Source: Chloroflexota bacterium
GTDB lineage: Bacteria > Chloroflexota > Dehalococcoidia > Lucifugimonadales > UBA3495
DNA length: 64,000 bases
Direction: 5' to 3'
Assembly (NCBI GenBank): GCA_028875055.1
Contig: JAPPGG010000072.1
Coordinates: 51,032 to 115,031 of the forward strand
A program made the position numbers and the translations under genes. The notes beneath the pieces are model-generated. The model worked only from the letters and a program-made list of their open reading frames with translations. It did not search any database and was not told where the DNA came from. Of the stretch, positions 4,704 to 40,217 are shown piece after piece. The first letter of the stretch is position 1. Each line of letters starts with the position of its first letter.

Positions 4704-4845
4704 TGATTCGATGTCTGGCAAGCGCCCTTCTTGGCCCCATATCCGGGGCAGGGAATGCCAATGTGACAAGAATGTGGAGGCCTGAAAAGGCTCTAATCGG
4801 TTGCGGGTCTCATATCCGCCAACCATCAGCGGAAGGTGATTGTTA

Positions 4846-16053: not shown

Positions 16054-16896
16054 ATGATTGGCGGCAGGGCCCCCACAGCGGGGCACACTTACAGCGTCCC
16101 CGAGTTGCAGGCTATGGCCAAGGAACTTCGGCGGGACATAATCCAGACCATCTATACCGCCGGCAGTGGACATCCCGGCGGTTCTCTTTCGGAATTGGAA
16201 ATACTGATTTCCCTGTATTTCCGGGTTATGCGGTACGACCCCGAAAACCCCGGCTGGGCCGACCGCGACAGGTTCATCCTCAGCAAGGGTCACGCCTCCC
16301 CCGGCTTTTATGCCGTTCTTTCTCGTGCCGGTTACTTTCCCAGGGAGGAACTGGCTACCTATCGTCAGCTGAACAGCCGGATCCAGGGCCATGCGCACCC
16401 AATGACACCCGGCGTGGAAATGAACTCGGGTTCTCTTGGCATGGGTCTGTCCTTCGCCCTGGGTTGCGCCCTCGCTGCGCGCTTGGACGGCAAGGACTAC
16501 ATGGTTTACGCCCTTCTTGGCGACGGCGAGTGCGACGAGGGCGAAATCTGGGAGGCCGCCATGTCCGCTGCCCACCACAAGGCTACCAACCTGGTGGCCA
16601 TTGTGGACCGCAACCGCATTCAAAACGACCGGTTCACCGACGACGTTATGACTCTCGACCCCCTGGACAGGAAATGGCGAGATTTTGGCTGGCGTGTTTT
16701 TGAGACCGATGGCCACGACCTGCCGGCGCTGCTGGACACATTTGAGAAGACCCAGCGTCGCCGCACCAGGCCGACGGTAATCATCGCCCACACGGTCAAG
16801 GGCAAGGGGGTCAGCTTCATGGAAAACAACCCCGGCTTCCACGGCCGGGCTCCCAACGCCGACGAATATCAGAAAGCACTGGAGGAACTGGCCTGA
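16054..16896 (+). CDS. tkt: Transketolase, N-terminal (TPP-binding) subunit
   Basis: SGHPGGSLS, GHASP and GDGECDEGEIWEA motifs. 280 aa, typical of split transketolase. Confidence 0.92.
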   Translation: MIGGRAPTAGHTYSVPELQAMAKELRRDIIQTIYTAGSGHPGGSLSELEILISLYFRVMRYDPENPGWADRDRFILSKGHASPGFYAVLSRAGYFPREELATYRQLNSRIQGHAHPMTPGVEMNSGSLGMGLSFALGCALAARLDGKDYMVYALLGDGECDEGEIWEAAMSAAHHKATNLVAIVDRNRIQNDRFTDDVMTLDPLDRKWRDFGWRVFETDGHDLPALLDTFEKTQRRRTRPTVIIAHTVKGKGVSFMENNPGFHGRAPNADEYQKALEELA

Positions 16897-25821: not shown

Positions 25822-27207
25822 ATGAGTGACTTGCCCCATATCCTCAGGCTTTCCGACTCTTTCTCCCAGCGTTCGGTTGCCCTGCGGCTCTCTGCAGAGG
25901 ACGCGTCCCTGCCGCTCAGCCATCTGATTGTCCGGTACCTGAAATGTCCTGACGGGCCCGACCTGCTGGCCAGGGAAGCAATTGCCCAGGAATCCCTCGT
26001 CACTCTTCAGTCGCTGCAGGACCTGGTTTACGCTTGCGATGACCTGGGTAGATTAACTGAGCCCTACTCGGGAGTCTCTTTCCGGCAGGATGACGCCCGA
26101 ATCGAAGTGAGTGAAATCCCGGGGTATTCCGAGATAGTAGTTGACGGGTCCAGCGCCAAGCTGACTGAGATTGTAATTGACCGCACCGATGCCGGTTACG
26201 ACAGGAACTGGGCCGGGTTTCATAGCCGTCGGTGGAACAATGCTCCCGGATTCTTTGAAGAGTTCGTGCTTGATTCGCTGGAGGAGGTCTTTGGTCCCCG
26301 GGAGGCTGGGCAGATTCTTCAACTCGAGAGCCAGGCGAGCATATTGGCCCTGGTGGAGACGCTTGCCAGGAAAATATGGGACAGCGAATTCGAAAATTAC
26401 TCCCGCTTTACCGGCCGGAAGCTGCTGTTCAAGACCGGCGACGAGACCGTCAGTAACATAGCTGCCGGCGCCGGCGGCATCTGCACCGAGAAAGTCCAGG
26501 CCCTCAGATTCCTCACCGACCACTACGGAATCCAGTCCGAGTACGTGATTGGCGGCGACGGCGCCCGTGACCCGGTCCCCGTCGAAAGGCTGAGGGAGAT
26601 GCTTCGGACCGGCGATTTCAGGTTTGCCCGGCGTCATATGCGCTACTGGCGGCACGCGGCCCTGCTTTACCAGATCGACGGGCTGCCCCTTCTCGTGGAC
26701 GCCACCAACGGCAACATCCCGTTCCTTTTCCTTAAGGGACCCGAGGCGGAGAGGCTCCTGGGGTATGAGCGCAAGCCATCCGTCCCCGTCAGGATGGTGG
26801 AAGCTGAGGAACAGTACTTCTACCACCGAGTCCCCCAGGACATTCCGCAGAACCTTTTCTTCGCCATGGAAAGCTGGATAACCGATACCGATATGGTCCA
26901 GGTTTTCGAGAATGAACTGGGCCTGTTTCTTTCCAGCGACTACTACGTCACTCCCCTACCCTATCGGACCCAGGCCGAATACCAGCGGCTGGCCGACGAA
27001 TACCAGGTCATCGCCGCCAGGGCAGGTTACCGGTGCCAGGCAAGCCCGCGGTGGACCCTGGACGGCGAGCCAGGTGAGGCCTTCTGCAAGTCCCACCCGG
27101 AAACTGCATCCCGGATATTGGACGCCAGGGAACATTTGCTGCTCAGGTATAATGGTTGGGACATTCCCGGTCACGACGCCGGCCTGGTTGTCATGGAAAT
27201 GGCCTGA
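25822..27207 (+). CDS. Hypothetical protein (461 aa) with possible transglutaminase-/papain-like Cys-His-Asp arrangement; first gene of the SecA-paralogue operon
   Basis: GGGAG RBS 6 nt upstream. GGICTEKVQALRFL (Cys221), RHAALLYQIDG (His278) and LLVDATNG (Asp293) have spacings of 57 and 15 aa, as in transglutaminase-core proteins. I recognise no other family. Confidence 0.7.
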   Translation: MSDLPHILRLSDSFSQRSVALRLSAEDASLPLSHLIVRYLKCPDGPDLLAREAIAQESLVTLQSLQDLVYACDDLGRLTEPYSGVSFRQDDARIEVSEIPGYSEIVVDGSSAKLTEIVIDRTDAGYDRNWAGFHSRRWNNAPGFFEEFVLDSLEEVFGPREAGQILQLESQASILALVETLARKIWDSEFENYSRFTGRKLLFKTGDETVSNIAAGAGGICTEKVQALRFLTDHYGIQSEYVIGGDGARDPVPVERLREMLRTGDFRFARRHMRYWRHAALLYQIDGLPLLVDATNGNIPFLFLKGPEAERLLGYERKPSVPVRMVEAEEQYFYHRVPQDIPQNLFFAMESWITDTDMVQVFENELGLFLSSDYYVTPLPYRTQAEYQRLADEYQVIAARAGYRCQASPRWTLDGEPGEAFCKSHPETASRILDAREHLLLRYNGWDIPGHDAGLVVMEMA

Positions 27208-27236: not shown

Positions 27237-30200
27237 ATGATTGCCAGCGACACTAAGCCACTCTACGCCCCGGCAAGACCAGGCGCCCTTACGCCTGGGG
27301 CCCTGCTGCGGCAGTGGCTGAGTGGTGTTGTTCATCCGGCTGCCAATTTGGTGTCACACCTTCGCGGGCAATCGCGGCAAGAGCTAGTGAAGAAAGTTCG
27401 CCAGGTTCGCCTGGATATGGCCCTGGAAGACTGGTCCGACTCGGACCTTCGCCGGCAAATGGACGACCTTCGGGCCGCCTTTTCTGAAACTCCAGGCCCC
27501 TCTGCCCGCGTCAATCGCCTTGTAGTCGCCTTCGCCATTGTCGATGAAAGTATTCGCCGGCGCGTGGGCTTCGGGCGTTTATTCAGCGACTCGGGCCGGT
27601 CCCCCGCTTTTGAGGCCTGTTTCGAGGCCTCGCAGGGACGTCGGAGCCTCAATGAGCTTTCGCCAGATGAAAAGACCGTCGCCGAAGCGATGATGCGGGC
27701 GGGCGCAGCAGGGAATGGTCGTTACGGTATTGACCTGATGTTCCCCGCCGGCCTCTACCGGGCGCTGGCTTCGGTGGACACCTCCGGTTCACTGCGCTTT
27801 CAGCCCACCGACGAGCAGCTGCTGGCGGGTATGTACCTGCTGGACAACCGGGTTGTAGAAATGCAGGCCGGCGAGGGAAAGACCGTTGCCATTGCTTTCG
27901 CCGCCATAGCCCACGCGCTTGGCGGACGGCATGTTCACATAATCACCGCCAATGATTACCTCGCCGACCGGGACTGCCGGCTACTGGCCCCGGTGTACAG
28001 GTCCCTTGGATTCTCTGCCGGCGCCATTCTGGAAGCCCTGGATGGCGCGGAGCGCAAGGCCGCCTACCAGAGCGATATTGTTTACGGCACCCTGAGGGAA
28101 CTGGGTTTCGATTTTCTTCGCGACCGACTGGCTGCCAGGGTCGAAGACGTGGTGCAGACCCCCCTTGGGGTGGCCATAGTGGACGAAGCGGACCAGGCGC
28201 TGGTGGATGAAGCGGACACTCCCCTCATTGTTTCCGGCCCACCGCTGCCCCAGTACCGTCCCTGGGCCCGCGTTCAAAAGGCGATCGGCGAAGTTGTCCA
28301 GGAGCAGCACAGAATCGCCGGGCAATATCTGCAACAGCTCAACGGCCTGGCCCCCGACGACAGAGCGTATGGCCGGTTGCTTTGCCTGGGGCTGCTTGCC
28401 AACCCCCACAGCAAGGACCTGCAGCGTCTTGCCCGCAACAATCCAGGTTCCTGCCGGCGGGGCCTTGGGGAACTCTACCCCGACGGCGGGGACAGTCCCG
28501 ACATGGCCCTCATCGCGAATCTGCTCTATGTCGTTGACCTCCACGAGCGATTCGTTACCCTCACCGAGAAGGGCGTGGACTTCCTTTCAAGTCGCCTGGG
28601 CGAATTCTGTCCCGCTTCCAACCACGGAGGCAAAGGTGGCGGGGACTCTGACCAGCTTACGAGGAGAGCGTCCCGGCAGCTGGCCCTGGCCAACCAGGTT
28701 TACCAGTCCCTCCGGGCCAACCTGCTCTTCGAAAGGGACGTCGATTACATCGTTTTCGATGACGCCGTCATACTGCTCGACCGGAACACCGGGCGTACCA
28801 GGCCCGATAACACTTACCGGTTCGGCCTGCAGCAGGCGGTGGAAGCCCGCGAAGGCGTAACCGTCCATCCCGAGAGTGAAACCGTGGCCCAGATTTCAGT
28901 CCAGGACTTTGCCGGGCGCTATCAGTTTCTTGCCGGCATTACCGGCACGGCCACCGCTGCCGCCAATGAGTTCAGGCGCCGCCACTCCCTGGACACCAAC
29001 GCAGTTCAACCCACTCAACCGTCCCAGCGTGTGGACTTGCCTTCCAGGATATTTGCTTCAGAAAGGCTGAAAATCGAGGCCATAGTGGAGGAAGTATCCT
29101 GGTGCCGGCGCATGGGCCGCCCGGTACTGGTGGGGACCGGTTCGGTCGGTTACTCCCTCGAAATCAGCCGGGCCCTCCGCGACGCCGGAATACACCACCG
29201 GGTCCTCAATGCAGTCCAGTCCCACCAGGAAGCGGACATTGTGCGCACTGCCGGCGCCCCGGGTGCGGTCACCGTGGCCACCAATATGGCTGGCCGGGGA
29301 ACCGATATCGTCCTCGATTCGGACGTGAACGATGTAATACTTGCCCGATGGGCTGACTTCGTTCTGGAAGCGGCCGCCGAGCAGCGGTTGCCCCTGGCAA
29401 TAAAGTGTTGCTCCAGGGCGGAGGCCGACCTTCTTGAGTCGGCCCTGGCAGATTCGCCTCTTATTTCAGTCTCTAGAGTCGGCGCACCCGGGGCGGAAGC
29501 CCTCCTGGTAACTGACCCACCCAGCCGGCTAGCCTGCAACCTGGACTCTGGCTTGTTCCATTGGGAATTTGGCCTGGGTCTCCACGTCATAAGCGCCGAG
29601 TTCAACCGGTTTCCCAGGGTTGCGCTGCAGCTCAGGGGACGCAGCGGACGCCAGGGTCTGTTTGGTTCAACCCGCTCAGTACTTTCCTGGGAAGATCCCG
29701 CTCTCCTCTCCCTGGGCCAAAGCCGCCCGGCCTTCCGGCGCTGCCAATATGAAGATGCCAGCGGCCGAGCCTGCTGGGAAGGTCAGGCTGTGGAAAGATA
29801 CATCGCCCGGCGGCAGGAGAACGCCGAGCAAGAGGCGGCTCAGCGCAGAAGCGTTGCCGGCGACTTTGCCTCCCTGATTGACGCCCAGAGTTCCGCCTAT
29901 TACGAGCTGCGCCAGGAACTCCTTTCCGGTCCTCGGGTCCTTGAGCGGTTGCCGGGCATTCTTTCAGACCGGGGTTCCCGCCTGGTACTGGAACATTTTC
30001 CCAACCTTGATACCGCCAGCTATCGTCAGCGCTATGAAGCCCTGATAAATGACGCCCGGCAGCGTTACGGGATAGTACTGGAAGAATTGTATGGGCTGTC
30101 ACTGGCCGCACTGCCTGCCGAAGTAGCCGCCAGAATGCGGCAGGCCGTGGACGAATTGGAACAGAGTCGCGGCCCCAGGGAGTTCAACTCACTGGTCCGG

Positions 30201-30479
30201 GGCTTGTGCGTCGAAACCTGCGATGAGTTGTGGCGCCGACACCTGGCCGACCTGCACCAGTCCGTTTTCAGTTCCCTCCTGAATGGCTATGGCCACAAGT
30301 CCGCGGTAGCCGACTACATTATCCACGCGGCGCAGTTGTGGGACCGTTTCAGCGACGACCTGTGGGACACGGTTTGTTCCAGATTGCTGACCCTTCCCTC
30401 TCCGCTGGATGAACCCGCAATCGGAAATCCCGTGGAGTGCGAAGAAATCCGAAGGGACCTGCTTTCCCTGATCCAGTGA
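27237..30479 (+). CDS. Divergent SecA-family ATPase (SecA paralogue, 1080 aa)
   Basis: Collinear with SecA. Walker A MQAGEGKT (27870-27884), ITANDYLADRD and DEADQALVDEADTPLIVSG. PPXD-flanking LFERDVDYIV, GLQQAVEAREGV and TGTA. NBD2 has PVLVGTGSV, ATNMAGRGTDI and QLRGRSGRQG. HSD/HWD-like tail (DELWRRHL). It differs from canonical SecA in several places (see findings). Confidence 0.9.
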   Translation: MIASDTKPLYAPARPGALTPGALLRQWLSGVVHPAANLVSHLRGQSRQELVKKVRQVRLDMALEDWSDSDLRRQMDDLRAAFSETPGPSARVNRLVVAFAIVDESIRRRVGFGRLFSDSGRSPAFEACFEASQGRRSLNELSPDEKTVAEAMMRAGAAGNGRYGIDLMFPAGLYRALASVDTSGSLRFQPTDEQLLAGMYLLDNRVVEMQAGEGKTVAIAFAAIAHALGGRHVHIITANDYLADRDCRLLAPVYRSLGFSAGAILEALDGAERKAAYQSDIVYGTLRELGFDFLRDRLAARVEDVVQTPLGVAIVDEADQALVDEADTPLIVSGPPLPQYRPWARVQKAIGEVVQEQHRIAGQYLQQLNGLAPDDRAYGRLLCLGLLANPHSKDLQRLARNNPGSCRRGLGELYPDGGDSPDMALIANLLYVVDLHERFVTLTEKGVDFLSSRLGEFCPASNHGGKGGGDSDQLTRRASRQLALANQVYQSLRANLLFERDVDYIVFDDAVILLDRNTGRTRPDNTYRFGLQQAVEAREGVTVHPESETVAQISVQDFAGRYQFLAGITGTATAAANEFRRRHSLDTNAVQPTQPSQRVDLPSRIFASERLKIEAIVEEVSWCRRMGRPVLVGTGSVGYSLEISRALRDAGIHHRVLNAVQSHQEADIVRTAGAPGAVTVATNMAGRGTDIVLDSDVNDVILARWADFVLEAAAEQRLPLAIKCCSRAEADLLESALADSPLISVSRVGAPGAEALLVTDPPSRLACNLDSGLFHWEFGLGLHVISAEFNRFPRVALQLRGRSGRQGLFGSTRSVLSWEDPALLSLGQSRPAFRRCQYEDASGRACWEGQAVERYIARRQENAEQEAAQRRSVAGDFASLIDAQSSAYYELRQELLSGPRVLERLPGILSDRGSRLVLEHFPNLDTASYRQRYEALINDARQRYGIVLEELYGLSLAALPAEVAARMRQAVDELEQSRGPREFNSLVRGLCVETCDELWRRHLADLHQSVFSSLLNGYGHKSAVADYIIHAAQLWDRFSDDLWDTVCSRLLTLPSPLDEPAIGNPVECEEIRRDLLSLIQ

Positions 30480-30566: not shown

Positions 30567-31391
30567 ATGGCCATAAGAATCAGAAGAATGAGCTCCGCGC
30601 TGTTTGCCGGCGCCATGCTGGCGGGGTCTCCGTTGATATCCGCGTGCAGCGCCGGCCCCACCTACGACACCTGGGCTGCCACCGACGGCGCCGCCGGCAG
30701 GATTAACCTGGACGACGTTCAGGAGGCATTCAAGGATTCCAGCAGCGCCACTGAGTTCGAGAATCGCGTCAACGAAATTTACGAGGGAGACGGCATAATC
30801 ATCATTCGGGCTCTCCAGGACGGAGACCGCCTGACCCTGGAAGGCTGGGAGGACCTGAACAATGACACCCAGATTGACGACTCCAGGGATGACCTGCTCT
30901 TCACCATCGTCAATCAGAATGACCAGAACGAGCTTCGCGGCCACCACGCCAACAGCTATTACCACAGCAGCTTCGGCGGCGGCGGCTTTTTGTTCGGCTA
31001 TATGCTGGCCACCGCCTTTATGCCCGGTCCATACTTCTACTCAACGCCGGTGACCCGCGGCTCTTCCATCCGCCAGACCCGCTCCTCCTATCGCCAGTCC
31101 GGCCGATACGGCACCCAGGTAGCCCGCAACAGCCGGTACGCGACCCAGCAGCAGGGTTTTGCCGGCTCCCGCTACCAGGATTCCGGCCGCAATCTCAGCT
31201 CCAACCGGCAGACTTACCAGCAGACGCAGCGAACTTCCGGCGCCTTTCGTTCCAGCAGCGCCGTTTCCAGGTCCAGGGGAACCTCCGGCTTTGGTTCCTC
31301 CGGATTCCGCTCCAGGAGCGGCAGCTTCAGCGGCGGCGGTGGCCACCAGAATCTGACTGGCAGGCGAGGCTCCACCCCGGATGCCCCCTGA
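30567..31391 (+). CDS. Predicted lipoprotein with R/S/G/Q-rich low-complexity C-terminal tail
   Basis: AAGGAG RBS 5 nt upstream. Signal peptide ending in the lipobox-like LISAC. A small acidic globular region, then the hydrophobic/Gly patch GGGGFLFGYMLATAF. The last 100 aa or so are dominated by R, S, G and Q. Confidence 0.75.
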   Translation: MAIRIRRMSSALFAGAMLAGSPLISACSAGPTYDTWAATDGAAGRINLDDVQEAFKDSSSATEFENRVNEIYEGDGIIIIRALQDGDRLTLEGWEDLNNDTQIDDSRDDLLFTIVNQNDQNELRGHHANSYYHSSFGGGGFLFGYMLATAFMPGPYFYSTPVTRGSSIRQTRSSYRQSGRYGTQVARNSRYATQQQGFAGSRYQDSGRNLSSNRQTYQQTQRTSGAFRSSSAVSRSRGTSGFGSSGFRSRSGSFSGGGGHQNLTGRRGSTPDAP

Positions 31392-32409
31392 CCGCCTGCA
31401 TATCGAACTGGCGCTGGAGGGTTTGCCGCCGGACGCCGTTCTTGAGTTTGAACTGCAGGAGGGCGCCACCGGCCTTTCCCTGGCCTCGCTTCTGGAAGAG
31501 GTTTTTCCTCGCGACGAGGCCGCCAGGATGGAGGTGGAAGAGTCCTTCGACTTGCGGTTAAATCCCGACGTGCCTGAAATCTACGGAGAATTCCTGGCGG
31601 TGGTCCGGCAATACCGGGCGGGCTTGTGCTCGCTCTCGGTCAGCTCCACCACTGGCCAGGACCTGTCCCCCACGGACCTGGTGGATGACCTGGTGGCCCC
31701 GGGTCCTCCCGGGAGCTTTTCGGTCCTGTCTCTGTCCCTGGCCGCCCAATACGATCCCCTGGAATATGCCGGGGACCAGGGTTACGATGCCGGCGAGCCG
31801 GACCTCCTGCACTGGTTGCTGGTGTGCTTAACGATGTACTTTATTGACAAGCACGAGTCATCCCTGCCAGCGCAGGAAAGCCTTGACCAGTGCCCGCCAT
31901 TGGCCTCGGCGGTGGATGAAATCCTCTCCCGAAACCTTGTAGAAACAGGGGACAACCCTCCAGCGGCTGCCATTACCCCCGAGGGCCGCAGGTTCATCGG
32001 AGACCTCCTGGCCGAAACCGAGCAGTTGATCGACTCTTATGACCTCTTCAAGGATGCCTGTTGGGATAAGGATACCGGCCAGGCCCTCTTTGGGACCGGA
32101 CAGGGGGAAGACTTGAGGGTCGAAGTGTTCATAGCAGATTCCATCGACCCGGTACGCGCCGTTTTTCTGCTTCGCCTCTACGACGGCTCGCTGGACCTTC
32201 TGGCTGACCGCTGGCCCGAGGCAGCCGCCGACATCGACCTCTTCAACAACTTGCTCTTGCCGGTAGTGGACCGGAGCGTCACTGAAAGTGAGTTGCTTGA
32301 GGAAATCATCGAGCAGGGCATGGAGTTGCTGGAGTCCCAGCAAGAAAGGATAAGGGAGGAAACCATATACAGAAGGGCTGCCCGCAGCGCGCTGGCCGAT
32401 GGATGCTAG
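31381..32409 (+). CDS. Hypothetical acidic protein (342 aa)
   Basis: ATG overlaps the 3' end of the lipoprotein gene by 11 nt (ATGCCCCCTGA). Strongly acidic, with no motif I recognise. The segment ITPEGRRFIGDLL is vaguely wHTH-like. Confidence 0.65.
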   Translation: MPPDRLHIELALEGLPPDAVLEFELQEGATGLSLASLLEEVFPRDEAARMEVEESFDLRLNPDVPEIYGEFLAVVRQYRAGLCSLSVSSTTGQDLSPTDLVDDLVAPGPPGSFSVLSLSLAAQYDPLEYAGDQGYDAGEPDLLHWLLVCLTMYFIDKHESSLPAQESLDQCPPLASAVDEILSRNLVETGDNPPAAAITPEGRRFIGDLLAETEQLIDSYDLFKDACWDKDTGQALFGTGQGEDLRVEVFIADSIDPVRAVFLLRLYDGSLDLLADRWPEAAADIDLFNNLLLPVVDRSVTESELLEEIIEQGMELLESQQERIREETIYRRAARSALADGC

Positions 32410-33680: not shown

Positions 33681-34271
33681 TTACCCGGGCCGTTCCCCCG
33701 GATAGAGCTGTATGTTTTCTTCCGAGATAATGTCCGCGAAGTGAGCTTCGAAGGGCGTGCCCTCGAATTTCGTGATTGACAGTATTCTGCTCTCGTCCTC
33801 GGCCAGGAACTCCCACATGTAGAACCCTTCCCCGTCCGTGGGCCGGTTGTCCTTGAAGTAAAAGGCCTCGAAACTGTTGCGGTACATGAAACGCAGCCCG
33901 TCAAACTCAATGGACCGGTCGATCGACCTGCGTTCATCCATCTCCAGCAGGGCGGACTCAGGCAGGCCTATGGCTTCCAGGCCCACAGGGCGTCGGTTGT
34001 CGGTGGCAGTAACGAACAGGGTTGGGCCATCCTCCGACCACTCCAGCCATATGCGATTCTCCGCGTCCGCCACCACCAGTTCGTACCAGACGGCCCCGTT
34101 GCCACCGTAACGATGCAGGCTTTCAACCACAAAATAACATTCTTCGTAGTCCAGGGCCCAACCCTGTATGGTGACCACGTCCCCCACCCGGGCCTCCCTC
34201 AAGCTGTTATCGGCCCGAAAGCCCGTAGGGGCCGGCCGCTTCTTCCCCCTGCCAAAAAGTCCCCGAAGCAT
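33681..34271 (-). CDS. DUF4178 domain protein (YjfK-like)
   Basis: 196 aa, beta-rich. ARVGDVVTIQG...WYELVVAD...IWLEWSED resembles DUF4178 as I recall it. Operonic with the DUF350 gene, a pairing I recall as recurrent. Confidence 0.7.
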   Translation of the reverse strand: MLRGLFGRGKKRPAPTGFRADNSLREARVGDVVTIQGWALDYEECYFVVESLHRYGGNGAVWYELVVADAENRIWLEWSEDGPTLFVTATDNRRPVGLEAIGLPESALLEMDERRSIDRSIEFDGLRFMYRNSFEAFYFKDNRPTDGEGFYMWEFLAEDESRILSITKFEGTPFEAHFADIISEENIQLYPGERPG

Positions 34272-35004: not shown

Positions 35005-35775
35005 ATGGGAATGTTCTCAAGAATGTCCACAATCGTTAAGTCAAAAATGAACCGAATCCTGGACTCAGCGGAAGACCCCAGGGAAACCCTCGATTACTCC
35101 TACGAGAAACAGCTGGAAATGCTCCAGAACGTGAAGCGGGGCGTGGTGGAAATGGTTACCGCCAAACGCCGCATCCAGCAGCAGGCAGCCAAGGTGCGCG
35201 AGAACGTTACCCGCCTCGAGCGCCAGGCCAGGCAGGCCCTGGACGCCGACCGGGAAGACCTCGCCCGTCTGGCCCTGCAACGCAAGCAGAACGCTCTCAT
35301 CGAACTTCAGGGTCTGGATGAGCAGATCGAAGGAATGGAGCAGGAACAGCAGAAACTCACCATCGCCGAGCAGAGGCTGCAGGCCAAGGTTGACGCCTTC
35401 CGCAACAAGAAGGAAATCATCAAGGCCCAGTACACCGCAGCCCAGGCCCAGGTGAGGATCGGCTCGGCCCTGGGAGGAATCTCCGAGGAAATGAGCGACG
35501 TTTCCCTGGCTGTGCAGCGCGCGGAAAACAAGACTGACCAGATGCGGGCCAAGGCCGGCGCCATCGATGAGCTCGTGGAAACCGGCGTTCTGGACGACAT
35601 CACCGGACCCCAGGACGACATTGAAAGGGAGCTCTCCCAGATCTCCATTTCCCAGGGCGTCGAGGAAGAACTTGCCGCCCTCAAGGGTGGTGGCTCCGGC
35701 GCCAGGGCGTTGCCAGCCTCTCAGTCTGCCGTGGACGCCGAACTGGACGCTCTCAGAAACCAGGGTTCCAGCTAA
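35005..35775 (+). CDS. pspA: PspA/IM30 (Vipp1) family protein
   Basis: MGMFSRMSTIVKSKMNRILDSAEDPRETLDYSYEKQ parallels the PspA N-terminus [25 protein letters not shown]. Long coiled coil. GGAGGT RBS. Confidence 0.9.
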   Translation: MGMFSRMSTIVKSKMNRILDSAEDPRETLDYSYEKQLEMLQNVKRGVVEMVTAKRRIQQQAAKVRENVTRLERQARQALDADREDLARLALQRKQNALIELQGLDEQIEGMEQEQQKLTIAEQRLQAKVDAFRNKKEIIKAQYTAAQAQVRIGSALGGISEEMSDVSLAVQRAENKTDQMRAKAGAIDELVETGVLDDITGPQDDIERELSQISISQGVEEELAALKGGGSGARALPASQSAVDAELDALRNQGSS

Positions 35776-35796: not shown

Positions 35797-36075
35797 ATGA
35801 TCGTAAGAATTCTGGGTGAAGGCCAGTTCAATCTGCCCGGCGCGGCAATCGACGAGCTGAACGAAATTGACAACCGCATGGTGGAAGCCGTGGAGGCGGA
35901 AGACCGCTCCACGCTGACTGCTCTGCTTCAGGAAATGGAAACCCTAGTCCGCGAAAAGGGAGAGCCGGTACCTATCGATGAGCTGGTGGAGTCAGACCTG
36001 ATTCTGCCCGAAACCGACCTCACCCTGGAAGAAGCCGAAAGCATATTTGTGGGCGAAGGGCTCCTGCCAGGTTAG
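35797..36075 (+). CDS. Small acidic PspA-associated protein (PspAA-like)
   Basis: 92 aa and very acidic, 21 nt downstream of pspA. Its size, position and MIVRILGEGQF... start fit the PspA-associated small protein family as I recall it. Confidence 0.6.
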   Translation: MIVRILGEGQFNLPGAAIDELNEIDNRMVEAVEAEDRSTLTALLQEMETLVREKGEPVPIDELVESDLILPETDLTLEEAESIFVGEGLLPG

Positions 36076-36152: not shown

Positions 36153-37469
36153 TTACCCTTGCGTCTCCACCACCGGCGCCGGACGAATCGGTCGCCGGAC
36201 CGATGCGGGATCAATGCCGGCGCGCATGGCCGACATCACCCCTGCAGCCTCCCAGTAATTCTCCACCACGTAGAACTGTCCCGTTTGCCAGGGAAGCATT
36301 TCCAGGTCGTTCCGCATCAGGTTCCGGTTCTCTCTTACGGCGATCACCTTGATCCCCTGTTCCAGCGCCGCAAGCACCGGCAGCCCCAGGCAACCCTCCG
36401 GAATCACCAGGCAGGAAATGTTCGACGCGCCAATGACGCCCGGATGGGCCATGGCGGCAGCATCGGTAGTCAGGGCAGGGCTCTGCTGCAACCCCTTCAG
36501 AATGCATTGAATCAGCGCCAGGGAAACTCCCTCCGCTGCCATGCGAGGGTCAATAATCCCCGGGTCGGCGTTGGCAATGGCCTGGGTCTCCAGCATGGGC
36601 GCGTGGGCCGACGGCACGTCCAGCATTGCGGAAACGGCATGCGTCAGCATGGCTTCCACCCCGCCCCAGGGATTTACCATCTCCCCGTTGCTGTCAAAGT
36701 ACTCGGCGTGGAAGCCTTCTGGGACATTTATCTGGGAGGATATGGCGACGGCATCAAACTGCCCCCTGTACTCTTCCAGGGCGTCCAGAACGCGTTCCAG
36801 GCCCCTGACTTTGCCCGCTGCCCTCCCCGACCCCACATAGGCTGATGCCATCTCGAACTCCGGGCCCAGCCTGACCATCCCCGGGACAGCCAGTCCATAT
36901 GTGGCGCGGGCCGCGTTAACCGAGTTTATGGCGGCGTTCAGGAACAGCTCGTCATTGTGGTGACCCAGCAGAACCAGGACCCGGTTGCTGCGGGTTCGCT
37001 GCAGTCCCACCGCTCCCATCAGGAGCCGCGAGATTATGCTCCCTTCCACGTAAAGCGCATTCCCCGGAATGTCGATGATGTCCGATGCATTGACTACGTT
37101 GGGGTGGGTGATCAGGGTGTCGCAGGCGGCAGACAGCAGCTTTGCCACCGGCGTGGCATCCCCCGCATGCCCCCCAATTTCGGCCCCAATTCCCGTGGGA
37201 ACCAACAACACGCAGGTAAAATTCCCCACGTTCTCAAAGGAGCGGCGATGAAACTGGAATATGGAAGAGGGAGGCGCTCCTTCCCACTCCGACAGTATGC
37301 TTACTTCGCAGTTGAACGCTTCGCCGGAGGACGAAGTCACCGCCAGCCTGACGGGCCATTCACCCGCAACAAGCTGCCGCCCAACGCCATCTCCCAGATC
37401 CGCCAAAGCGGCTCCGGACCGGACGTCCACGGGGACGGTCAATTCCCTTTCATGAAGGATGGCTGGCAT
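36153..37469 (-). CDS. DUF3326 family protein
   Basis: LLVPTGIGAEIGGHAGDATPVAKLL...THPNVVNASD is the conserved DUF3326 core as I recall it. The start ATG at 37469 overlaps the nspC 3' end by 20 nt. Confidence 0.75.
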   Translation of the reverse strand: MPAILHERELTVPVDVRSGAALADLGDGVGRQLVAGEWPVRLAVTSSSGEAFNCEVSILSEWEGAPPSSIFQFHRRSFENVGNFTCVLLVPTGIGAEIGGHAGDATPVAKLLSAACDTLITHPNVVNASDIIDIPGNALYVEGSIISRLLMGAVGLQRTRSNRVLVLLGHHNDELFLNAAINSVNAARATYGLAVPGMVRLGPEFEMASAYVGSGRAAGKVRGLERVLDALEEYRGQFDAVAISSQINVPEGFHAEYFDSNGEMVNPWGGVEAMLTHAVSAMLDVPSAHAPMLETQAIANADPGIIDPRMAAEGVSLALIQCILKGLQQSPALTTDAAAMAHPGVIGASNISCLVIPEGCLGLPVLAALEQGIKVIAVRENRNLMRNDLEMLPWQTGQFYVVENYWEAAGVMSAMRAGIDPASVRRPIRPAPVVETQG

Positions 37470-38622
37470 TAGTTTTCCATCGTCCGGCGTAGTCCTCGTA
37501 GTCAAACTCCCTCAGCAGCCTGAGCCGCCCTTCCGGGCTGACCGCGTAAAGAGTTGGCAGATTGACACCGTTGAAGGTGTGGGCCTTGGCCAGGGTATAG
37601 GAACCGGCATTCTTGAATACCACCCGGTCTCCCACCTCTAGCGGACGCTCAAATCTGTACTCTCCGAATACATCGCCGGCCAGGCAGGTGCACCCGGCCA
37701 GCAGGTACTCCCATTTCCCGTCGTCCTGGTGACCATCCACGTCCGGCCCAAAGTCGAACTCCAGCAGTTCCGGCATGTGGTTGACTGTGGTGTCCAGCAC
37801 TGCGACCATCTTCCCGCCGCTGTCGAAAATGTCCAGCGCCGTGCTGACCATGTGCCCCGCGGAACGGGCAAAGGCCGTGCCGGGTTCAAGAAAAACCATC
37901 AGGTCGTATTCCCCGCGCAGGTGTTCGATGGTCGCACGCAGGGGGGCCAGGTCAACCCCCTCCGGCAACAGGTAGCCTCCGCCCAGGTTTATCCACGACG
38001 CCTGCTCCAGCAGATGGGGCAGCCGCTGCTCGAGGCAGTCCACCGTCTGTTGCAGCTCAAGGAAATCGGTAGATTCGCAGTTTGTATGCACCAGCAATCC
38101 CTCGGGCTTCCCGACGCCCAGTCCCTCCAGGCTGTCCATGCCGGCCAGGACGTCAATGGGAATGCCCAGCTTCGAGTGTTCGCGGCACGGGTCATACCGT
38201 TCGTCGTCAAGAAAGGACATTCCCGGATTGACCCTCAGTCCCGGGCTGGCCCGGCCATCAAAATAAGCCCCGGTGTTGCGCCATTGCCCCAGGCTGTTGA
38301 AGGAGACATAATCGCACAGGCCCGCCAGCTCCGAAGCGTCTCGAAGCCTGATTCCGGGGCTGGTGAAATGGATGGAACTGGGCTCTCCCACGACCGAGCG
38401 CGCCAGCCTGGCTTCAAACACCGAACTCGCTGCGAAGCCGCTCAGCCTCGGCGCCATCAGCTCCAGCATTGGCGGGAGGGGCAGGGGTTTGAGGGAATAG
38501 AGCATCCTGCAGCCTGTCTCCCTCTGCAGGGACTCGGCAACCTCCAGAACCCGCAGAATCTCTCCCTCATCGTAAACGAGGGCCGGGGTATTCACGGCAT
38601 CAAGCAGGCTGCTTAACTGCAT
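37450..38622 (-). CDS. nspC: Carboxynorspermidine/carboxyspermidine decarboxylase
   Basis: 390 aa. PALVYDE...LYSLKPLP (PLP-Lys region), GGGY and CLAGD(V/I)FGEY are characteristic of the CANSDC branch of alanine-racemase-fold decarboxylases. Confidence 0.8.
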   Translation of the reverse strand: MQLSSLLDAVNTPALVYDEGEILRVLEVAESLQRETGCRMLYSLKPLPLPPMLELMAPRLSGFAASSVFEARLARSVVGEPSSIHFTSPGIRLRDASELAGLCDYVSFNSLGQWRNTGAYFDGRASPGLRVNPGMSFLDDERYDPCREHSKLGIPIDVLAGMDSLEGLGVGKPEGLLVHTNCESTDFLELQQTVDCLEQRLPHLLEQASWINLGGGYLLPEGVDLAPLRATIEHLRGEYDLMVFLEPGTAFARSAGHMVSTALDIFDSGGKMVAVLDTTVNHMPELLEFDFGPDVDGHQDDGKWEYLLAGCTCLAGDVFGEYRFERPLEVGDRVVFKNAGSYTLAKAHTFNGVNLPTLYAVSPEGRLRLLREFDYEDYAGRWKTNASHPS

Positions 38623-38700: not shown

Positions 38701-39315
38701 CTAACGCATGGGGGAGAAGGAGGCGGGAATCAGGACCTTGTTCTCCTGGCGAATGCGGCCCGGCGCGCCCGAGGGCCAGTTGGGAGTGCCGCTGGAGGCC
38801 TTCCGGATTTCGTCCCGGTGGTTCAGGTCCTTGTAGGGCCAGACGTGCATCCACCGATTAAGCCCGCCCAGCTCGGAGTGCATGGCGGCCACGCAGGGTG
38901 AGAACTGCTCCCTCCAGGGAAGGGCCTTTTCCCACCGGTTGAGCAATTCGGGAATTGAGCCGGGCTTGTAGGTGTAAATGCGCATTTCGTACACGTTGCC
39001 CAGTTCCTGTCCGCCGCCCAGGGGTCGCATGAAGGATGCCGGGTTCCAGATTTCCGACTCCATCGTCATGATCATGCTGGTGTCGCGGGGCGGCCAGTTG
39101 GGGTCCTTGGCGGCCTCGGCGCGAATCTTCTCCCGTTCCAGCAGGTCTTCGTATCCCCAGACATGGACGACCTGGTTCAGGGTGCCGATGTCCGTGTGCC
39201 AGAATGCTGCCAGCGGGGAGTATTTCTCCCGGTGGGGCAGCGCTTCGGCAAAGCTCTCCTCGAACTGGGGCACCGTGCCGGGTTCCAGGGTGTAGGTCCG
39301 AACTTCGTAAATCAT
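38701..39315 (-). CDS. NIPSNAP family protein (two tandem NIPSNAP domains)
   Basis: MIYEVRTYTL...VVHVWGYEDL and YEMRIYTYKPG...WMHVWPYKDL are two repeats of the NIPSNAP pattern. Confidence 0.8.
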   Translation of the reverse strand: MIYEVRTYTLEPGTVPQFEESFAEALPHREKYSPLAAFWHTDIGTLNQVVHVWGYEDLLEREKIRAEAAKDPNWPPRDTSMIMTMESEIWNPASFMRPLGGGQELGNVYEMRIYTYKPGSIPELLNRWEKALPWREQFSPCVAAMHSELGGLNRWMHVWPYKDLNHRDEIRKASSGTPNWPSGAPGRIRQENKVLIPASFSPMR

Positions 39316-39407: not shown

Positions 39408-40217
39408 TCAGGGAATCTCCACGCCTCGCCACTGCCTCCGGTCGCCCACCCTGACGAAGTGGCCGAATCCCGGGTCCGGAAAGTGTCCCGCTGAGACCAG
39501 TATGCCTTCGGCCTCCAGCATATCCAGCACCGCGTGACGGGTACTGCGGGATGTCTCCGGCTGGACGTCAAAGATGGGGTTCCAGTCGGTGTAGTGGGCC
39601 TGGGCCGGCGTATGGGCCACGTCTCCAAGAATATAACCCCGATGGCCCTGGGATGCAATCACGATGGAAACGTGGCCGGGGGTGTGTCCCGGCGTCGAAA
39701 CCGTCGCAAGCTCCTCCGTAATGTGGTAATCGTCATCAATGAGGTCCATGATCTTCAGTTCAGCCAGGGGGAGCACCTGGCTGGAAATATGAGGCGCGTT
39801 GGATGCCACCGACTCCTGCGTCCAGTGGTCCCAGTCCCGCCGGGGAATCAGGTAGCGGGCGTTGGGAAAGGTGGGCTGACCGTCCGTCAGGTTCCAGCCC
39901 ACGTGGTCCGGATGCAGGTGCGTGAAGACCACCAGGTCCACCGCATTGCGGTCCACACCCTTCCTCTCCATATCCGTCAGCAGGGCGCCGTCGGGAGCCT
40001 GCAGGCCGGTATCGACAATTATCAGCTTGCCGCCGGAACGGACCGCCGTGGTTCCGTATCGGCTGCGAATCTGTTCCTCGGGGTCCAGCAACTCGGGAAA
40101 CTCCCTCCACTGCTCAATGGTGGTTTCGGGAAAGGGCATAAAGGGCGAGCGTATGGGTTCGCCGTCGTTCAGGGAAATCAGTTCCACATTGCCAACGCTT
40201 ATCGAATAACCGGGCAT
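39408..40217 (-). CDS. MBL-fold metallo-hydrolase
   Basis: THLHPDHVGW (HxHxDH), a later TPGHTPGH, and a C-terminal His. Confidence 0.85.
   Translation of the reverse strand: MPGYSISVGNVELISLNDGEPIRSPFMPFPETTIEQWREFPELLDPEEQIRSRYGTTAVRSGGKLIIVDTGLQAPDGALLTDMERKGVDRNAVDLVVFTHLHPDHVGWNLTDGQPTFPNARYLIPRRDWDHWTQESVASNAPHISSQVLPLAELKIMDLIDDDYHITEELATVSTPGHTPGHVSIVIASQGHRGYILGDVAHTPAQAHYTDWNPIFDVQPETSRSTRHAVLDMLEAEGILVSAGHFPDPGFGHFVRVGDRRQWRGVEIP

What the first reader, a model, noticed from the sequence alone, without database searches (positions are those of the whole stretch)
36153..38622. Carboxynorspermidine decarboxylase overlapping a DUF3326 gene by 20 nt instead of the usual dehydrogenase partner
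The nspC-like gene overlaps the downstream DUF3326 gene by 20 nt, which suggests translational coupling. In characterised pathways the decarboxylase is normally paired with carboxy(nor)spermidine dehydrogenase, and no such gene is present in this window. DUF3326 (conserved core PTGIGAEIGGHAGDATP...THPNV) has no assigned function to my knowledge. The tight coupling suggests it acts in the same polyamine pathway. It might supply, replace or modify the dehydrogenase step, or process the product.
Basis: partly seen in the sequence, partly recalled or inferred. Interest (0 to 1): 0.55.

Follow-up and report, generated by a model that had tools for sequence, protein, structure and literature searches.

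The report
Decarboxylase plus DUF3326 polyamine gene pair
A decarboxylase that normally finishes spermidine-type polyamines overlaps a gene of unknown function (DUF3326), and across 141 bacterial, archaeal and viral loci DUF3326 almost always sits beside or fused to a decarboxylase, so the pair is probably a two-enzyme polyamine route that needs no known dehydrogenase.

Summary
On the minus strand, a 390-aa nspC-like PLP decarboxylase (37450..38622) ends 20 nt inside a 438-aa DUF3326 gene (36153..37469). None of 48 window ORFs scanned against Pfam is a carboxy(nor)spermidine dehydrogenase.

The linkage is not chance:
- 130 of 141 DUF3326 loci have a decarboxylase next to DUF3326: 63 nspC-like and 67 pyruvoyl AdoMetDC-like.
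- A third type, OKR_DC_1, sits next to DUF3326 in two loci of a distant clade.
- Both main partner types also occur fused to DUF3326.
- The exact 20-nt overlap recurs in 30 loci.

Both partner decarboxylases are divergent. The nspC-like protein scores 272.8 bits against a 409 cut-off, and Glu replaces the specificity Asp in 64 of 64 copies.

A June 2026 preprint shows that PavA (Rieske + nspC-like) and PavB (DUF3326) are both needed to make a C5-N-C5 triamine. It also reports that the B. pseudomallei genes reconstitute the first pathway steps in E. coli.

Best reading: DUF3326 is the C-N bond-forming partner and takes the dehydrogenase's place. Its chemistry is unknown, and two confident AlphaFold models have no relative in the PDB.

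The window's pair sits in a PspA/PspAA/DUF4178/DUF350 membrane-stress cluster of a SAR202-type Chloroflexota genome. I rate it a new variant of a known kind, interest about 0.7.

The parts
37450..38622 (-). nspC-like PLP decarboxylase of the alanine-racemase fold, 390 aa. It is a divergent relative of carboxy(nor)spermidine decarboxylase.
   Evidence: Pfam PF00278. TIGR01047 272.8 bits against a 409.05 cut-off. PDB 9eaf E 2e-74. K45, H179, C182, E246, G248, C313 and Y342 are invariant in 64 copies, and Glu285 occupies the specificity-helix Asp position.
36153..37469 (-). DUF3326 protein, 438 aa, long form. It has a roughly 85-residue N-terminal domain followed by a two-lobed alpha/beta core. 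Proposed C-N bond-forming partner of the decarboxylase.
   Evidence: PF11805 E 1.7e-89. AF2 model pLDDT 84.4, pTM 0.87. No PDB relative by fold or sequence. A decarboxylase is adjacent in 130 of 141 loci.
37450..37469 (-). 20-nt overlap between the stop of the decarboxylase and the start of DUF3326. It is likely a translational-coupling junction.
   Evidence: Sequence read directly. The same -20 junction occurs in 30 other loci, and 60 of 61 nspC-type junctions lie between -23 and +8 nt.
38701..39315 (-). NIPSNAP-domain protein, 204 aa, 78 nt upstream on the same strand. It may be in the same operon.
   Evidence: PF07978 E 1.3e-45. It is present upstream of nspC in 24 SAR202/Dehalococcoidia loci. 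Median identity to the window is 90%, against 57% for nspC.
39408..40217 (-). Metallo-beta-lactamase-fold protein, 269 aa, same strand, upstream of NIPSNAP. Its membership of the unit is uncertain.
   Evidence: PF00753. It is present in only some of the related loci.
35005..35775 (+). PspA/IM30 membrane-stress protein, convergent with the pair.
   Evidence: PF04012. It lies downstream of DUF3326 in 44 loci. A PspA is also in the alphaproteobacterial AdoMetDC-like/DUF3326 operon.
35797..36075 (+). PspA-associated protein PspAA.
   Evidence: PF22743 E 2.3e-33. It is syntenic in 44 loci.
33681..34271 (-). DUF4178 protein. This is a known partner in PspA/polyamine-linked clusters.
   Evidence: PF13785. 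It is present in 47 loci. The cluster type is described in PMC11237479.
32761..33816 (-). Membrane protein with two DUF350 (YjfL-type) domains. The true start is probably downstream of the mechanical GTG, which overlaps DUF4178.
   Evidence: PF03994 E 2e-50, two stretches. It is present in 49 loci.
30567..32409 (+). Two conserved genes with no Pfam match. One is a lipoprotein (30567..31391, with an LISAC lipobox). The other is an acidic 342-aa protein (31381..32409). Both are syntenic with the cluster and with SecA (27237..30479).
   Evidence: No Pfam hit at E<=1. Translations. They form families f4 and f10, found in 47 and 44 loci, including L082, which lacks PspA.

Best explanation
The two overlapping genes form a two-enzyme module that makes a polyamine, most likely a triamine, without carboxy(nor)spermidine dehydrogenase.

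DUF3326 is proposed to be the enzyme that forms the secondary-amine C-N bond. It would join an amine to an amino-acid-derived unit and give an N-omega-(aminoalkyl) alpha-amino acid, a 'carboxy-polyamine'. The nspC-like PLP enzyme then removes the alpha-carboxyl group. In this organism, a sponge-type SAR202 Chloroflexota, the product is probably used in the adjoining PspA/PspAA/DUF4178/DUF350 membrane-stress system.

Shown here:
- the gene pair and its overlap;
- conserved coupling of DUF3326 to decarboxylases of unrelated folds;
- intact catalytic residues in the decarboxylases.

Shown by others: a DUF3326 protein and an nspC-like domain are both genetically required for a triamine.

Inferred: DUF3326 acts first, the kind of bond it makes, its cofactor, and the identity of the substrates and product.
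For: 1. Coupling. All 82 cellular loci first collected have a decarboxylase beside DUF3326: 64 nspC-like and 18 AdoMetDC-like. Over 141 loci the count is 63 nspC-like, 67 AdoMetDC-like and 11 with none adjacent.
2. Partner replacement by unrelated folds.
- The AdoMet_dc fold (PF02675) is the partner in at least six named bacterial phyla, an archaeon and about 47 IMG/VR viral contigs.
- OKR_DC_1 is the partner in two loci of a distant clade.
- In a neighbour-joining ordering, the nspC-linked DUF3326 proteins form a derived clade inside the AdoMetDC-linked diversity.
3. Fusions. AdoMet_dc::DUF3326 occurs in P0123 and P0270. nspC-like::DUF3326 occurs in P0224 and P0255.
4. Both partner decarboxylases look neofunctionalised.
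- nspC-like: 272.8 bits against a 409 cut-off, and Glu replaces the terminal-amine-binding Asp in 64 of 64 copies, whereas 4 of 4 solved CANSDC/CASDC have Asp.
- AdoMetDC-like: 22-31 bits against a 75.65 cut-off. It keeps the equivalents of S63, H68 and C83 but lacks the Pro that marks true AdoMetDC (PMC10407285).
5. Order of steps.
- The closest relatives of the window's decarboxylase are carboxy(nor)spermidine decarboxylases, not Orn/Lys/Arg decarboxylases (E 2e-74 against 1e-8 to 1e-11). All characterised members of that family that I know of act on N-alkylated carboxy-polyamines (my own knowledge).
- In P. caledonica, cadaverine is present in every strain, yet the triamine appears only when both pavA and pavB are present.
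- The preprint reports that the B. pseudomallei genes reconstitute the first and second steps in E. coli. By general knowledge, E. coli has no CANSDH.
- DUF3326 also occurs beside NRPS modules with no decarboxylase, which fits a role in making an amino-acid building block.
6. DUF3326 residues. The family-wide invariant polar residues are mostly acidic or aromatic: D104, D117, E142, E272, E313, E407, Y140 and Y405, plus H289 and R309. That is what a polyamine-binding site would need. A Gly-rich loop (PTGxGxxxGGxxGD) sits between a strand and a helix, as in nucleotide- or phosphate-binding sites.
7. Context. A glutathionylspermidine-synthetase-family gene (PF03738, E 1e-140) lies directly upstream of AdoMetDC-like/DUF3326 in alphaproteobacterial PspA clusters. 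This fits a polyamine product.
Against: - No biochemical assay of any DUF3326 protein exists.
- The fold gives no cofactor or mechanism. The best Foldseek hits have TM 0.2-0.3 and E >= 7e-4, even for a model with pLDDT 91.8.
- The known neofunctionalised AdoMetDC homologues and the OKR_DC_1 enzymes decarboxylate free arginine, ornithine or lysine. That would fit the opposite order, with the decarboxylase acting first.
- The Pav authors themselves read PavA as a lysine decarboxylase, and they allow that the triamine may be a by-product.
- I could not retrieve the PavB sequence to measure how close it is to the window's protein.
- A CANSDH elsewhere in this genome is not excluded.
- Much of the nspC-type sample comes from one phylum, so its synteny is partly inherited.
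- IMG/VR contigs are predictions.
Confidence: 0.55

Rival explanations
1. Same module, opposite order. The decarboxylase first makes a simple amine such as putrescine, cadaverine, agmatine or 1,3-diaminopropane. DUF3326 then converts it. It could join two amines with loss of ammonia, as homospermidine synthase and deoxyhypusine synthase do, or it could trim agmatine.
For: - Characterised neofunctionalised AdoMetDC homologues are arginine or ornithine decarboxylases (PMC10407285 and PMC9992855).
- OKR_DC_1 partners belong to an Orn/Lys/Arg decarboxylase family.
- The decarboxylase gene is usually upstream.
- The Pav authors read the PavA C-terminal domain as a lysine decarboxylase.
Against: - The window's enzyme is far closer to carboxy(nor)spermidine decarboxylases than to Orn/Lys/Arg decarboxylases.
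- A P. caledonica strain with pavBC but no pavA contains cadaverine yet makes no triamine.
- NRPS-linked DUF3326 genes have no decarboxylase nearby.
- Neither model resembles homospermidine synthase, deoxyhypusine synthase or the arginase fold.
Confidence: 0.25
2. The decarboxylase is an ordinary carboxy(nor)spermidine decarboxylase served by a CANSDH encoded elsewhere. DUF3326 acts after it, for example by modifying, conjugating or sensing the polyamine.
For: - There is a full-length match to nspC and all PLP and catalytic residues are intact.
- The rest of the genome could not be searched.
- Polyamine-conjugating genes (GSP_synth) occur in related clusters.
Against: - The score is below the equivalog cut-off, and the specificity Asp is Glu in 64 of 64 copies.
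- In 67 loci DUF3326 keeps a decarboxylase partner even though no nspC-like gene was found within the few kilobases of flank examined.
[quoted passage not shown] E. coli has no CANSDH (general knowledge).
Confidence: 0.1
3. The module does not make a free polyamine. It installs or builds an amine group on another molecule, such as a lipid, a cell-envelope component, a peptide or a signalling compound. That product would serve the PspA membrane-stress system here, and elsewhere Septu defence or non-ribosomal peptides.
For: - The pair is embedded in PspA/DUF350/DUF4178 clusters. PMC11237479 proposes for such clusters that PspA systems monitor polyamines or the 'aminopropylation of other substrates'.
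- PtuA/PtuB (Septu) lies directly upstream in 11 cellular loci.
- NRPS contexts exist.
Against: - The one experimental system yields free triamines.
- Many viral copies carry only the two genes.
- Nothing in the sequence points to a macromolecular substrate.
Confidence: 0.1

Closest known systems
CANSDH/CANSDC (CASDH/CASDC) route to norspermidine and spermidine, and its variants via carboxyaminopropylagmatine and carboxyspermine (PMC10413350, PMC10599626, PMC11999265)
   Same: The last enzyme here is a homologue of CANSDC with the same fold and the same PLP and catalytic residues. The likely logic is also the same: build a carboxylated polyamine, then decarboxylate it.
   Different: - No saccharopine-dehydrogenase-family partner is present in the window.
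- The partner is DUF3326, which is unrelated in sequence and predicted fold.
- The decarboxylase scores below the nspC equivalog cut-off and has Glu where the solved enzymes have the specificity Asp.
pavABC pavettamine cluster of Burkholderia sensu lato (bioRxiv 10.64898/2026.06.12.731819)
   Same: It pairs an nspC-like decarboxylase domain (in PavA) with a DUF3326 protein (PavB). Both are required for a triamine, N-(5-aminopentyl)pentane-1,5-diamine.
   Different: - PavA carries an N-terminal Rieske oxygenase domain, and the cluster has a JmjC-like hydroxylase, PavC. Neither is next to the window's pair, so the product here is not pavettamine.
- The preprint found pavABC only in Burkholderia sensu lato, whereas this pair is in Chloroflexota.
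- I could not measure sequence relatedness to PavB.
AdoMetDC homologues neofunctionalised to pyruvoyl arginine or ornithine decarboxylases (PMC10407285, PMC9992855)
   Same: The alternative partner of DUF3326 is a class 1b AdoMetDC-fold protein. It keeps the processing and catalytic Ser, His and Cys, lacks the Pro diagnostic of true AdoMetDC, and is common in viral contigs.
   Different: - It is only about 27% identical to a phage AdoMetDC that the PNAS paper confirmed as functional.
- The papers read here do not mention DUF3326.
- Its substrate is unknown.
PspA-linked clusters with DUF350, DUF4178, DUF2170, glutathionylspermidine-synthetase-like ligase and AdoMetDC (PMC11237479; Li et al. 2019 Biochem J, cited there)
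   Same: The window carries PspA, PspAA, DUF4178 and a double DUF350 protein right beside the pair. The alphaproteobacterial loci carry a K+ channel, DUF2170, PspA, GSP_synth, the AdoMetDC-like gene and DUF3326 in one row.
   Different: PMC11237479 does not mention DUF3326. The Li et al. 2019 paper was not in the library and was not read. The amine-making genes described for such clusters are AdoMetDC with a spermidine-synthase-like fusion protein.
Homospermidine synthase and deoxyhypusine synthase
   Same: They are possible functional analogues, because they make a secondary amine from two amines using a bound nicotinamide cofactor.
   Different: DUF3326 has no sequence or fold similarity to them, and neither needs a decarboxylase partner.

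Membership tests
Carboxynorspermidine decarboxylase (NCBIfam TIGR01047 nspC, equivalog) | Whole-protein score at or above the curated cut-off of 409.05 bits | tested here: not met
   272.8 bits over model positions 2-378 of 380.
Carboxynorspermidine decarboxylase (NCBIfam TIGR01047 nspC, equivalog) | Alanine-racemase-fold decarboxylase with the PLP lysine and catalytic His, Cys, Glu, Cys and Tyr (ClCASDC Lys43, His170, Cys173, Glu237, Cys306, Tyr335) | tested here: met
   K45, H179, C182, E246, C313 and Y342 align with these residues and are invariant in 64 DUF3326-linked copies.
Carboxynorspermidine decarboxylase (NCBIfam TIGR01047 nspC, equivalog) | Asp on the specificity helix that binds the terminal amine of the substrate (ClCASDC Asp276, in the motif HMPD) | tested here: not met
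   It is Glu285 (HMPE) in the window and in 64 of 64 linked copies. The four solved CANSDC/CASDC structures (9eaf, 36gy, 3n29, 3mt1) have Asp.
Carboxynorspermidine decarboxylase (NCBIfam TIGR01047 nspC, equivalog) | Works with a carboxy(nor)spermidine dehydrogenase encoded in the same genome, often adjacent | tested here: inconclusive
   There is none among 48 window ORFs. None was seen among the neighbours annotated in related loci. Whole genomes could not be searched.
DUF3326 (Pfam PF11805) | Match to the family model above the gathering score of 25 bits | tested here: met
   300.6 bits, model positions 1-336 of 337, residues 85-424.
Carboxy(nor)spermidine dehydrogenase (saccharopine dehydrogenase family), as a possible identity of DUF3326 | Sequence or fold similarity to Sacchrp_dh domains or to solved CASDH structures | tested here: not met
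   There is no other Pfam hit even at E<=10. The PDB sequence search found nothing. Foldseek with two models returned no such match.
S-adenosylmethionine decarboxylase class 1b (for the alternative partner in other loci) | Ser, His and Cys of self-processing and catalysis (T. maritima S63, H68, C83) | tested here: met
   They are aligned and conserved with identical spacing. One archaeal copy has Phe in place of the Cys.
S-adenosylmethionine decarboxylase class 1b (for the alternative partner in other loci) | The Pro after the catalytic His (HTWPE) that marks bona fide AdoMetDC, and a TIGR03330 score at or above 75.65 bits | tested here: not met
   The motif is HTLD or HTLE instead of HTWP (criterion from PMC10407285). 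Scores are 22-31 bits.
pavABC pavettamine cluster | Rieske oxygenase domain fused to the decarboxylase, and an adjacent JmjC-like hydroxylase | tested here: not met
   The decarboxylase is 390 aa with only the decarboxylase domain. Its neighbours are NIPSNAP, an MBL-fold protein and PspAA/PspA.
PspA-associated polyamine-linked membrane-stress cluster (as described in PMC11237479) | PspA together with DUF350, DUF4178 and amine-metabolism genes in one neighbourhood | tested here: met
   PspA, PspAA, DUF4178 and a double DUF350 protein lie within 3.4 kb of the pair. The same arrangement occurs in about 44-49 loci.

The most novel reading that the evidence does not exclude
DUF3326 is a previously unrecognised class of amine-joining (polyamine synthase) enzyme, unrelated to aminopropyltransferases, carboxyspermidine dehydrogenase, homospermidine synthase and deoxyhypusine synthase. 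Together with whichever decarboxylase is at hand, it forms a portable two-gene module. That module has spread through bacteria, archaea and viruses. Its product feeds PspA membrane-stress systems, non-ribosomal peptides and perhaps the Septu defence / phage counter-defence interplay.
Probability: 0.4. Interest if true: 0.85.

Novelty: new variant of a known kind. Interest (0 to 1): 0.7.

Why it matters
Polyamines are needed by nearly all cells and by many viruses. Only a few ways of making their secondary-amine bonds are known: aminopropyl transfer from decarboxylated SAM, reductive condensation with aspartate semialdehyde, and homospermidine- or deoxyhypusine-synthase chemistry.

If DUF3326 is a further, unrelated solution, several things follow:
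- Polyamine pathway predictions are wrong for the genomes that carry it, including abundant marine SAR202 Chloroflexota. DUF3326 is large: each of two searches returned about 7,000 90%-identity clusters while scoring only 8,000 candidates.
- Orphan 'nspC' and 'AdoMetDC' annotations would be explained.
- The unknown step of pavettamine toxin synthesis in Burkholderia pseudomallei relatives would gain a biochemical handle.
- A new auxiliary metabolic module would be identified in uncultured viruses.

The question is directly testable with two small genes.

Tried and rejected
- Fold-based function assignment failed. Two AlphaFold models, long form pLDDT 84.4 and short form pLDDT 91.8, gave only generic two-lobed alpha/beta matches. 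These were lumazine synthase, LacI/PBP, a HAD-like phosphatase and transcarbamylases, with TM 0.13-0.30. I draw no mechanism from them.
- The sequence search of the PDB with a DUF3326 profile found nothing.
- A Pfam scan at E<=10 showed no second family.
- I could not get a PavB sequence. tblastn against plasmids found nothing, and the other collections did not reach Burkholderia.
- INPHARED phages hold no DUF3326, so the viral link rests on IMG/VR predictions.
- True AdoMetDC plus a new aminopropyltransferase was considered and set aside. The partner lacks the diagnostic Pro and scores far below the AdoMetDC cut-off.
- Agmatinase-like or arginase-like hydrolase was considered and set aside. 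There is no fold similarity, and a hydrolase could not explain triamine formation by PavA and PavB.
- PADLOC has no model that matches DUF3326 or either decarboxylase.
- The promoter and terminator scan of the operon was uninformative.
- The papers read on AdoMetDC neofunctionalisation, viral polyamine enzymes and the PSP system do not mention DUF3326. The spermine-routes paper is also absent from the three full-text hits for 'DUF3326'.
- Whole-genome co-occurrence with CANSDH could not be computed with these tools.
Full report
**1. What is in the window**

Two minus-strand ORFs occupy exactly the stated coordinates.

The upstream gene, 37450..38622, encodes 390 aa. It matches Pfam Orn_DAP_Arg_deC. 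It matches NCBIfam TIGR01047 (nspC) end to end at 272.8 bits, which is below that model's equivalog cut-off of 409.05. Its best solved relatives are four carboxy(nor)spermidine decarboxylases: 9eaf at E 2e-74, then 3n29, 36gy and 3mt1. These score far above diaminopimelate decarboxylases and Lys/Orn decarboxylases, which come in at E 1e-8 to 1e-11.

The downstream gene, 36153..37469, encodes 438 aa and is a full-length DUF3326 protein (PF11805, E 1.7e-89).

The decarboxylase's TGA is at 37452..37450 and the DUF3326 ATG is at 37469, so the overlap is 20 nt. A TTG at 37505 is also open. However, 14 homologues at 59-73% identity start at the Met that aligns with the ATG.

The window is about 94% identical in DNA to a Chloroflexota MAG contig (L001). 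It is about 84% identical to a SAR202 cluster MAG (L002).

**2. No dehydrogenase in the window**

Forty-eight window ORFs were scanned against Pfam. They include all the long ones and all those of the size expected for a CANSDH. None belongs to the saccharopine-dehydrogenase family. The rest of the genome could not be searched.

**3. The linkage is conserved and the partner is replaceable**

A scan of one genome per species found 557 confirmed DUF3326 loci, of which the best 80 were kept. Two more came from contig look-ups.

Every one of these 82 loci has a decarboxylase beside DUF3326:
- 64 have the nspC-like gene. These are all the Chloroflexota, plus a Myxococcales MAG, a gammaproteobacterial MAG and loci from unnamed bacteria.
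- 18 have a small gene of the AdoMet_dc fold instead. These come from Planctomycetota, Alphaproteobacteria, Entotheonella, Neomarinimicrobiota, Nitrospinota, Acidobacteriota and Binatia.

The nspC-to-DUF3326 junction is -20 nt in 30 loci, -14 in 12, -4 in 5, -23 in 1, +8 in 12 and +154 in 1. AdoMetDC-like-to-DUF3326 gaps are 14-57 nt.

The short form of DUF3326 is about 335 aa and lacks the N-terminal domain. A search with a short-form query returned 7,592 hits among the 8,000 candidates scored. It follows an AdoMet_dc gene in a Thermoplasmatota archaeon and in contigs with phage-like gene content. It occurs on 54 IMG/VR viral contigs, about 47 of which have the AdoMetDC-like gene directly upstream.

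In a more distant clade, the neighbour is a third kind of decarboxylase, OKR_DC_1. It overlaps DUF3326 by 8 nt in L087 and is also present in Gloeotrichia. In other members of that clade the neighbour is an NRPS module with no decarboxylase: Lysobacter enzymogenes, Thiomargarita and L145. Two further members stand alone.

Over 141 loci the tally is 63 nspC-like, 67 AdoMetDC-like and 11 with none adjacent. In a neighbour-joining ordering of the DUF3326 proteins, the nspC-linked ones form a derived clade, plus one outlier, inside the AdoMetDC-linked diversity.

Single polypeptides that combine DUF3326 with either partner exist. AdoMet_dc::DUF3326 occurs in P0123 and P0270. nspC-like::DUF3326 occurs in P0224 and P0255. 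Some of these could be gene-calling artefacts.

Together, these three lines amount to the classical signature of two enzymes in one pathway: adjacency across phyla, replacement of one partner by unrelated folds, and fusions.

**4. The decarboxylases are functional but not standard**

All 64 DUF3326-linked nspC-like proteins keep the PLP lysine and the catalytic residues. These are K45, H179, C182, E246, G248, C313 and Y342, mapped onto the residues listed for the Clostridium leptum enzyme.

At the specificity-helix position that binds the substrate's terminal amine, all 64 have Glu (motif HMPE). All four solved CANSDC/CASDC have Asp.

The AdoMetDC-like partners keep the equivalents of T. maritima S63, H68 and C83 with identical spacing. 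They have Asp or Glu where true AdoMetDCs have the diagnostic Pro. They score 22-31 bits against a cut-off of 75.65 (criteria from PMC10407285). They are only about 27% identical to a phage AdoMetDC confirmed as functional in PMC9992855.

So both partners look like enzymes re-tuned to a new substrate.

**5. What the literature adds**

Only three papers in the library mention DUF3326. One matters here: a June 2026 preprint on pavettamine (10.64898/2026.06.12.731819).

In Paraburkholderia caledonica, PavA is a Rieske domain fused to a carboxynorspermidine-decarboxylase-like domain. PavB is a DUF3326 protein. PavC is a JmjC-like protein. All three are required for the toxin.

The unhydroxylated triamine N-(5-aminopentyl)pentane-1,5-diamine appears only when both pavA and pavB are present, although cadaverine is present in every strain. 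[quoted passage not shown]

The authors do not assign a reaction to PavB, and they found pavABC only in Burkholderia sensu lato.

Neither a Rieske domain nor a PLP decarboxylase can form the C-N-C bond of a triamine. By general knowledge, E. coli has no CANSDH. PavB is therefore the obvious candidate for the bond-forming step.

**6. What DUF3326 looks like**

AlphaFold models are confident: the long form has pLDDT 84.4 and pTM 0.87, and the short form has pLDDT 91.8.

The protein has two alpha/beta lobes. The long form adds a small N-terminal beta-alpha-beta-beta domain.

Foldseek against the PDB gives nothing better than E 7e-4 and TM 0.29. Sequence searches of the PDB give nothing. No cofactor or mechanism can be read from the fold.

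The family-wide invariant polar residues are T92, D104, D117, N124, Y140, E142, N182, N266, E272, H289, R309, E313, S316, Y405 and E407. This acidic and aromatic set suits polycationic substrates.

The Gly-rich loop PTGxGxxxGGxxGD lies between a strand and a helix, as phosphate- or nucleotide-binding loops do. This is inference only.

**7. Most likely mechanism**

I commit to the following. DUF3326 joins an amine to an amino-acid-derived unit and gives an N-omega-(aminoalkyl) alpha-amino acid. The decarboxylase then removes the alpha-carboxyl group to give a polyamine.

Four arguments favour this order:
- The window's decarboxylase is closest to carboxy(nor)spermidine decarboxylases. All characterised members of that family that I know of act on N-alkylated carboxy-polyamines.
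- Its distal-amine-binding residue is retained as an acid.
- In the Pav system, cadaverine without PavA gives no triamine.
- DUF3326 sits beside NRPS modules with no decarboxylase, where an unusual amino acid would be the useful product.

The opposite order remains a serious rival. In it, the decarboxylase makes a diamine and DUF3326 condenses amines as homospermidine synthase does. It is plausible because AdoMetDC-fold and OKR_DC_1 enzymes are known to act on free Arg, Orn and Lys.

I put the general statement 'DUF3326 and its decarboxylase act together in amine or polyamine synthesis' at about 0.85. I put the specific order and role at about 0.55.

**8. Context in this organism**

The pair lies tail to tail with PspA and PspAA. 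Next come DUF4178, a double-DUF350 membrane protein, two conserved genes with no Pfam match (a lipoprotein and an acidic protein) and SecA. This arrangement recurs in about 44-49 loci.

In three alphaproteobacterial loci the row is K+ channel, DUF2170, PspA, glutathionylspermidine-synthetase-like ligase (PF03738, E 1e-140), AdoMetDC-like gene and DUF3326.

Such PspA clusters linked to polyamine genes have been described (PMC11237479), but without DUF3326. The product is therefore probably used in, or sensed by, a membrane-stress system.

**9. Verdict**

The thing is not a canonical CANSDH/CANSDC pathway, because defining features were tested and not met. It is not the pavettamine cluster either, because it has no Rieske domain and no JmjC protein.

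It is a new variant of carboxy-intermediate polyamine synthesis, in which an uncharacterised enzyme family takes the condensing step. That family turns out to be very widely coupled to decarboxylases, including in viruses.

Noticed in passing
L047, L052, L055, L056, L060, L067, L073, L074, L078, L081, L088 (e.g. L055:5437-7480; L088:3612-5631): A Septu defence pair lies directly upstream of the decarboxylase/DUF3326 pair in 11 cellular loci. PtuA is an AAA_15/21 ATPase and PtuB is an HNH nuclease (PADLOC E 1e-51 and 1e-63). The loci come from at least six phyla and one archaeon, and the pair is present whichever decarboxylase type is used. None of the viral contigs has it. This could mean a defence-linked use of the module, with viral copies acting as a counter-measure.
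   Followed up: partly
L089-L144 (IMG/VR contigs; e.g. L090/L091, a 186,855-bp contig): The short-form DUF3326 plus AdoMetDC-like pair is common on predicted viral contigs: 54 contigs, about 47 with the pair adjacent. It is absent from the 50,697 GenBank phage records. In L090 a GIY-YIG homing-endonuclease gene is inserted between the two genes, and NAPRTase, NUDIX and NAD synthase genes follow.
   Followed up: partly
window 38701..39315 (NIPSNAP) compared with 37450..38622 (nspC-like): Across 23 related loci, median protein identity to the window is 90% for NIPSNAP and 87% for PspA. It is only 69% for DUF3326 and 57% for the nspC-like enzyme. The decarboxylase therefore evolves much faster than its neighbours.
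   Followed up: no
L083 (Lysobacter enzymogenes CP110813.1), L086 (Thiomargarita), L145, and a Gloeotrichia contig: Distant long-form DUF3326 genes sit inside non-ribosomal peptide synthetase clusters. In Lysobacter the gene lies between an A-T-C module and a Lant_dehydr_N protein. In Gloeotrichia it comes with OKR_DC_1, an A-T-C module, a methyltransferase and MatE. This suggests the enzyme also supplies building blocks for natural products.
   Followed up: no
L046, L048-L051, L053, L059, L064, L068, L082 (e.g. L082:11496-12947): A conserved protein of about 480 aa with no Pfam match directly follows DUF3326 and precedes a K+ channel (Ion_trans_2 + RCK) in ten loci. It occupies the position that the glutathionylspermidine-synthetase-like ligase holds relative to the pair in alphaproteobacteria.
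   Followed up: no
window 30567..31391 and 31381..32409; also window 25822..27207: The first two are conserved genes with no Pfam match, syntenic with SecA, DUF350 and DUF4178 in more than 40 loci. One is a lipoprotein with a Ser/Gly/Arg-rich tail and the other is an acidic cytoplasmic protein. The third is a 461-aa ORF that also has no Pfam hit.
   Followed up: no
L058, L061, L070, L071, L072, L075, L077 (e.g. L072:6368-7552): A protein of about 400 aa, apparently membrane-bound and with no Pfam match, lies directly upstream of the AdoMetDC-like/DUF3326 pair in seven loci. L072 also carries a second, shorter AdoMetDC-like copy at 16525-16842 on the opposite strand.
   Followed up: no
L088:5628-5999: The AdoMetDC-like protein of the Thermoplasmatota locus has Phe (NIFSFK) where all other copies have the catalytic Cys (NIFSCK).
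   Followed up: no
window 4840..6906; L047:4679-5446, L055:4697-5434, L073:4543-5280: The window encodes a DHDPS::4-HFC-P-synthase fusion protein of 688 aa. Stand-alone 4HFCP_synth-like genes lie just upstream of PtuA/PtuB in three of the Septu-linked DUF3326 loci.
   Followed up: no
P0122 (739 aa representative): This is a long-form DUF3326 with a C-terminal extension of about 315 residues that has no Pfam match. It contains an 'HEGYHAVHLAV' stretch.
   Followed up: no
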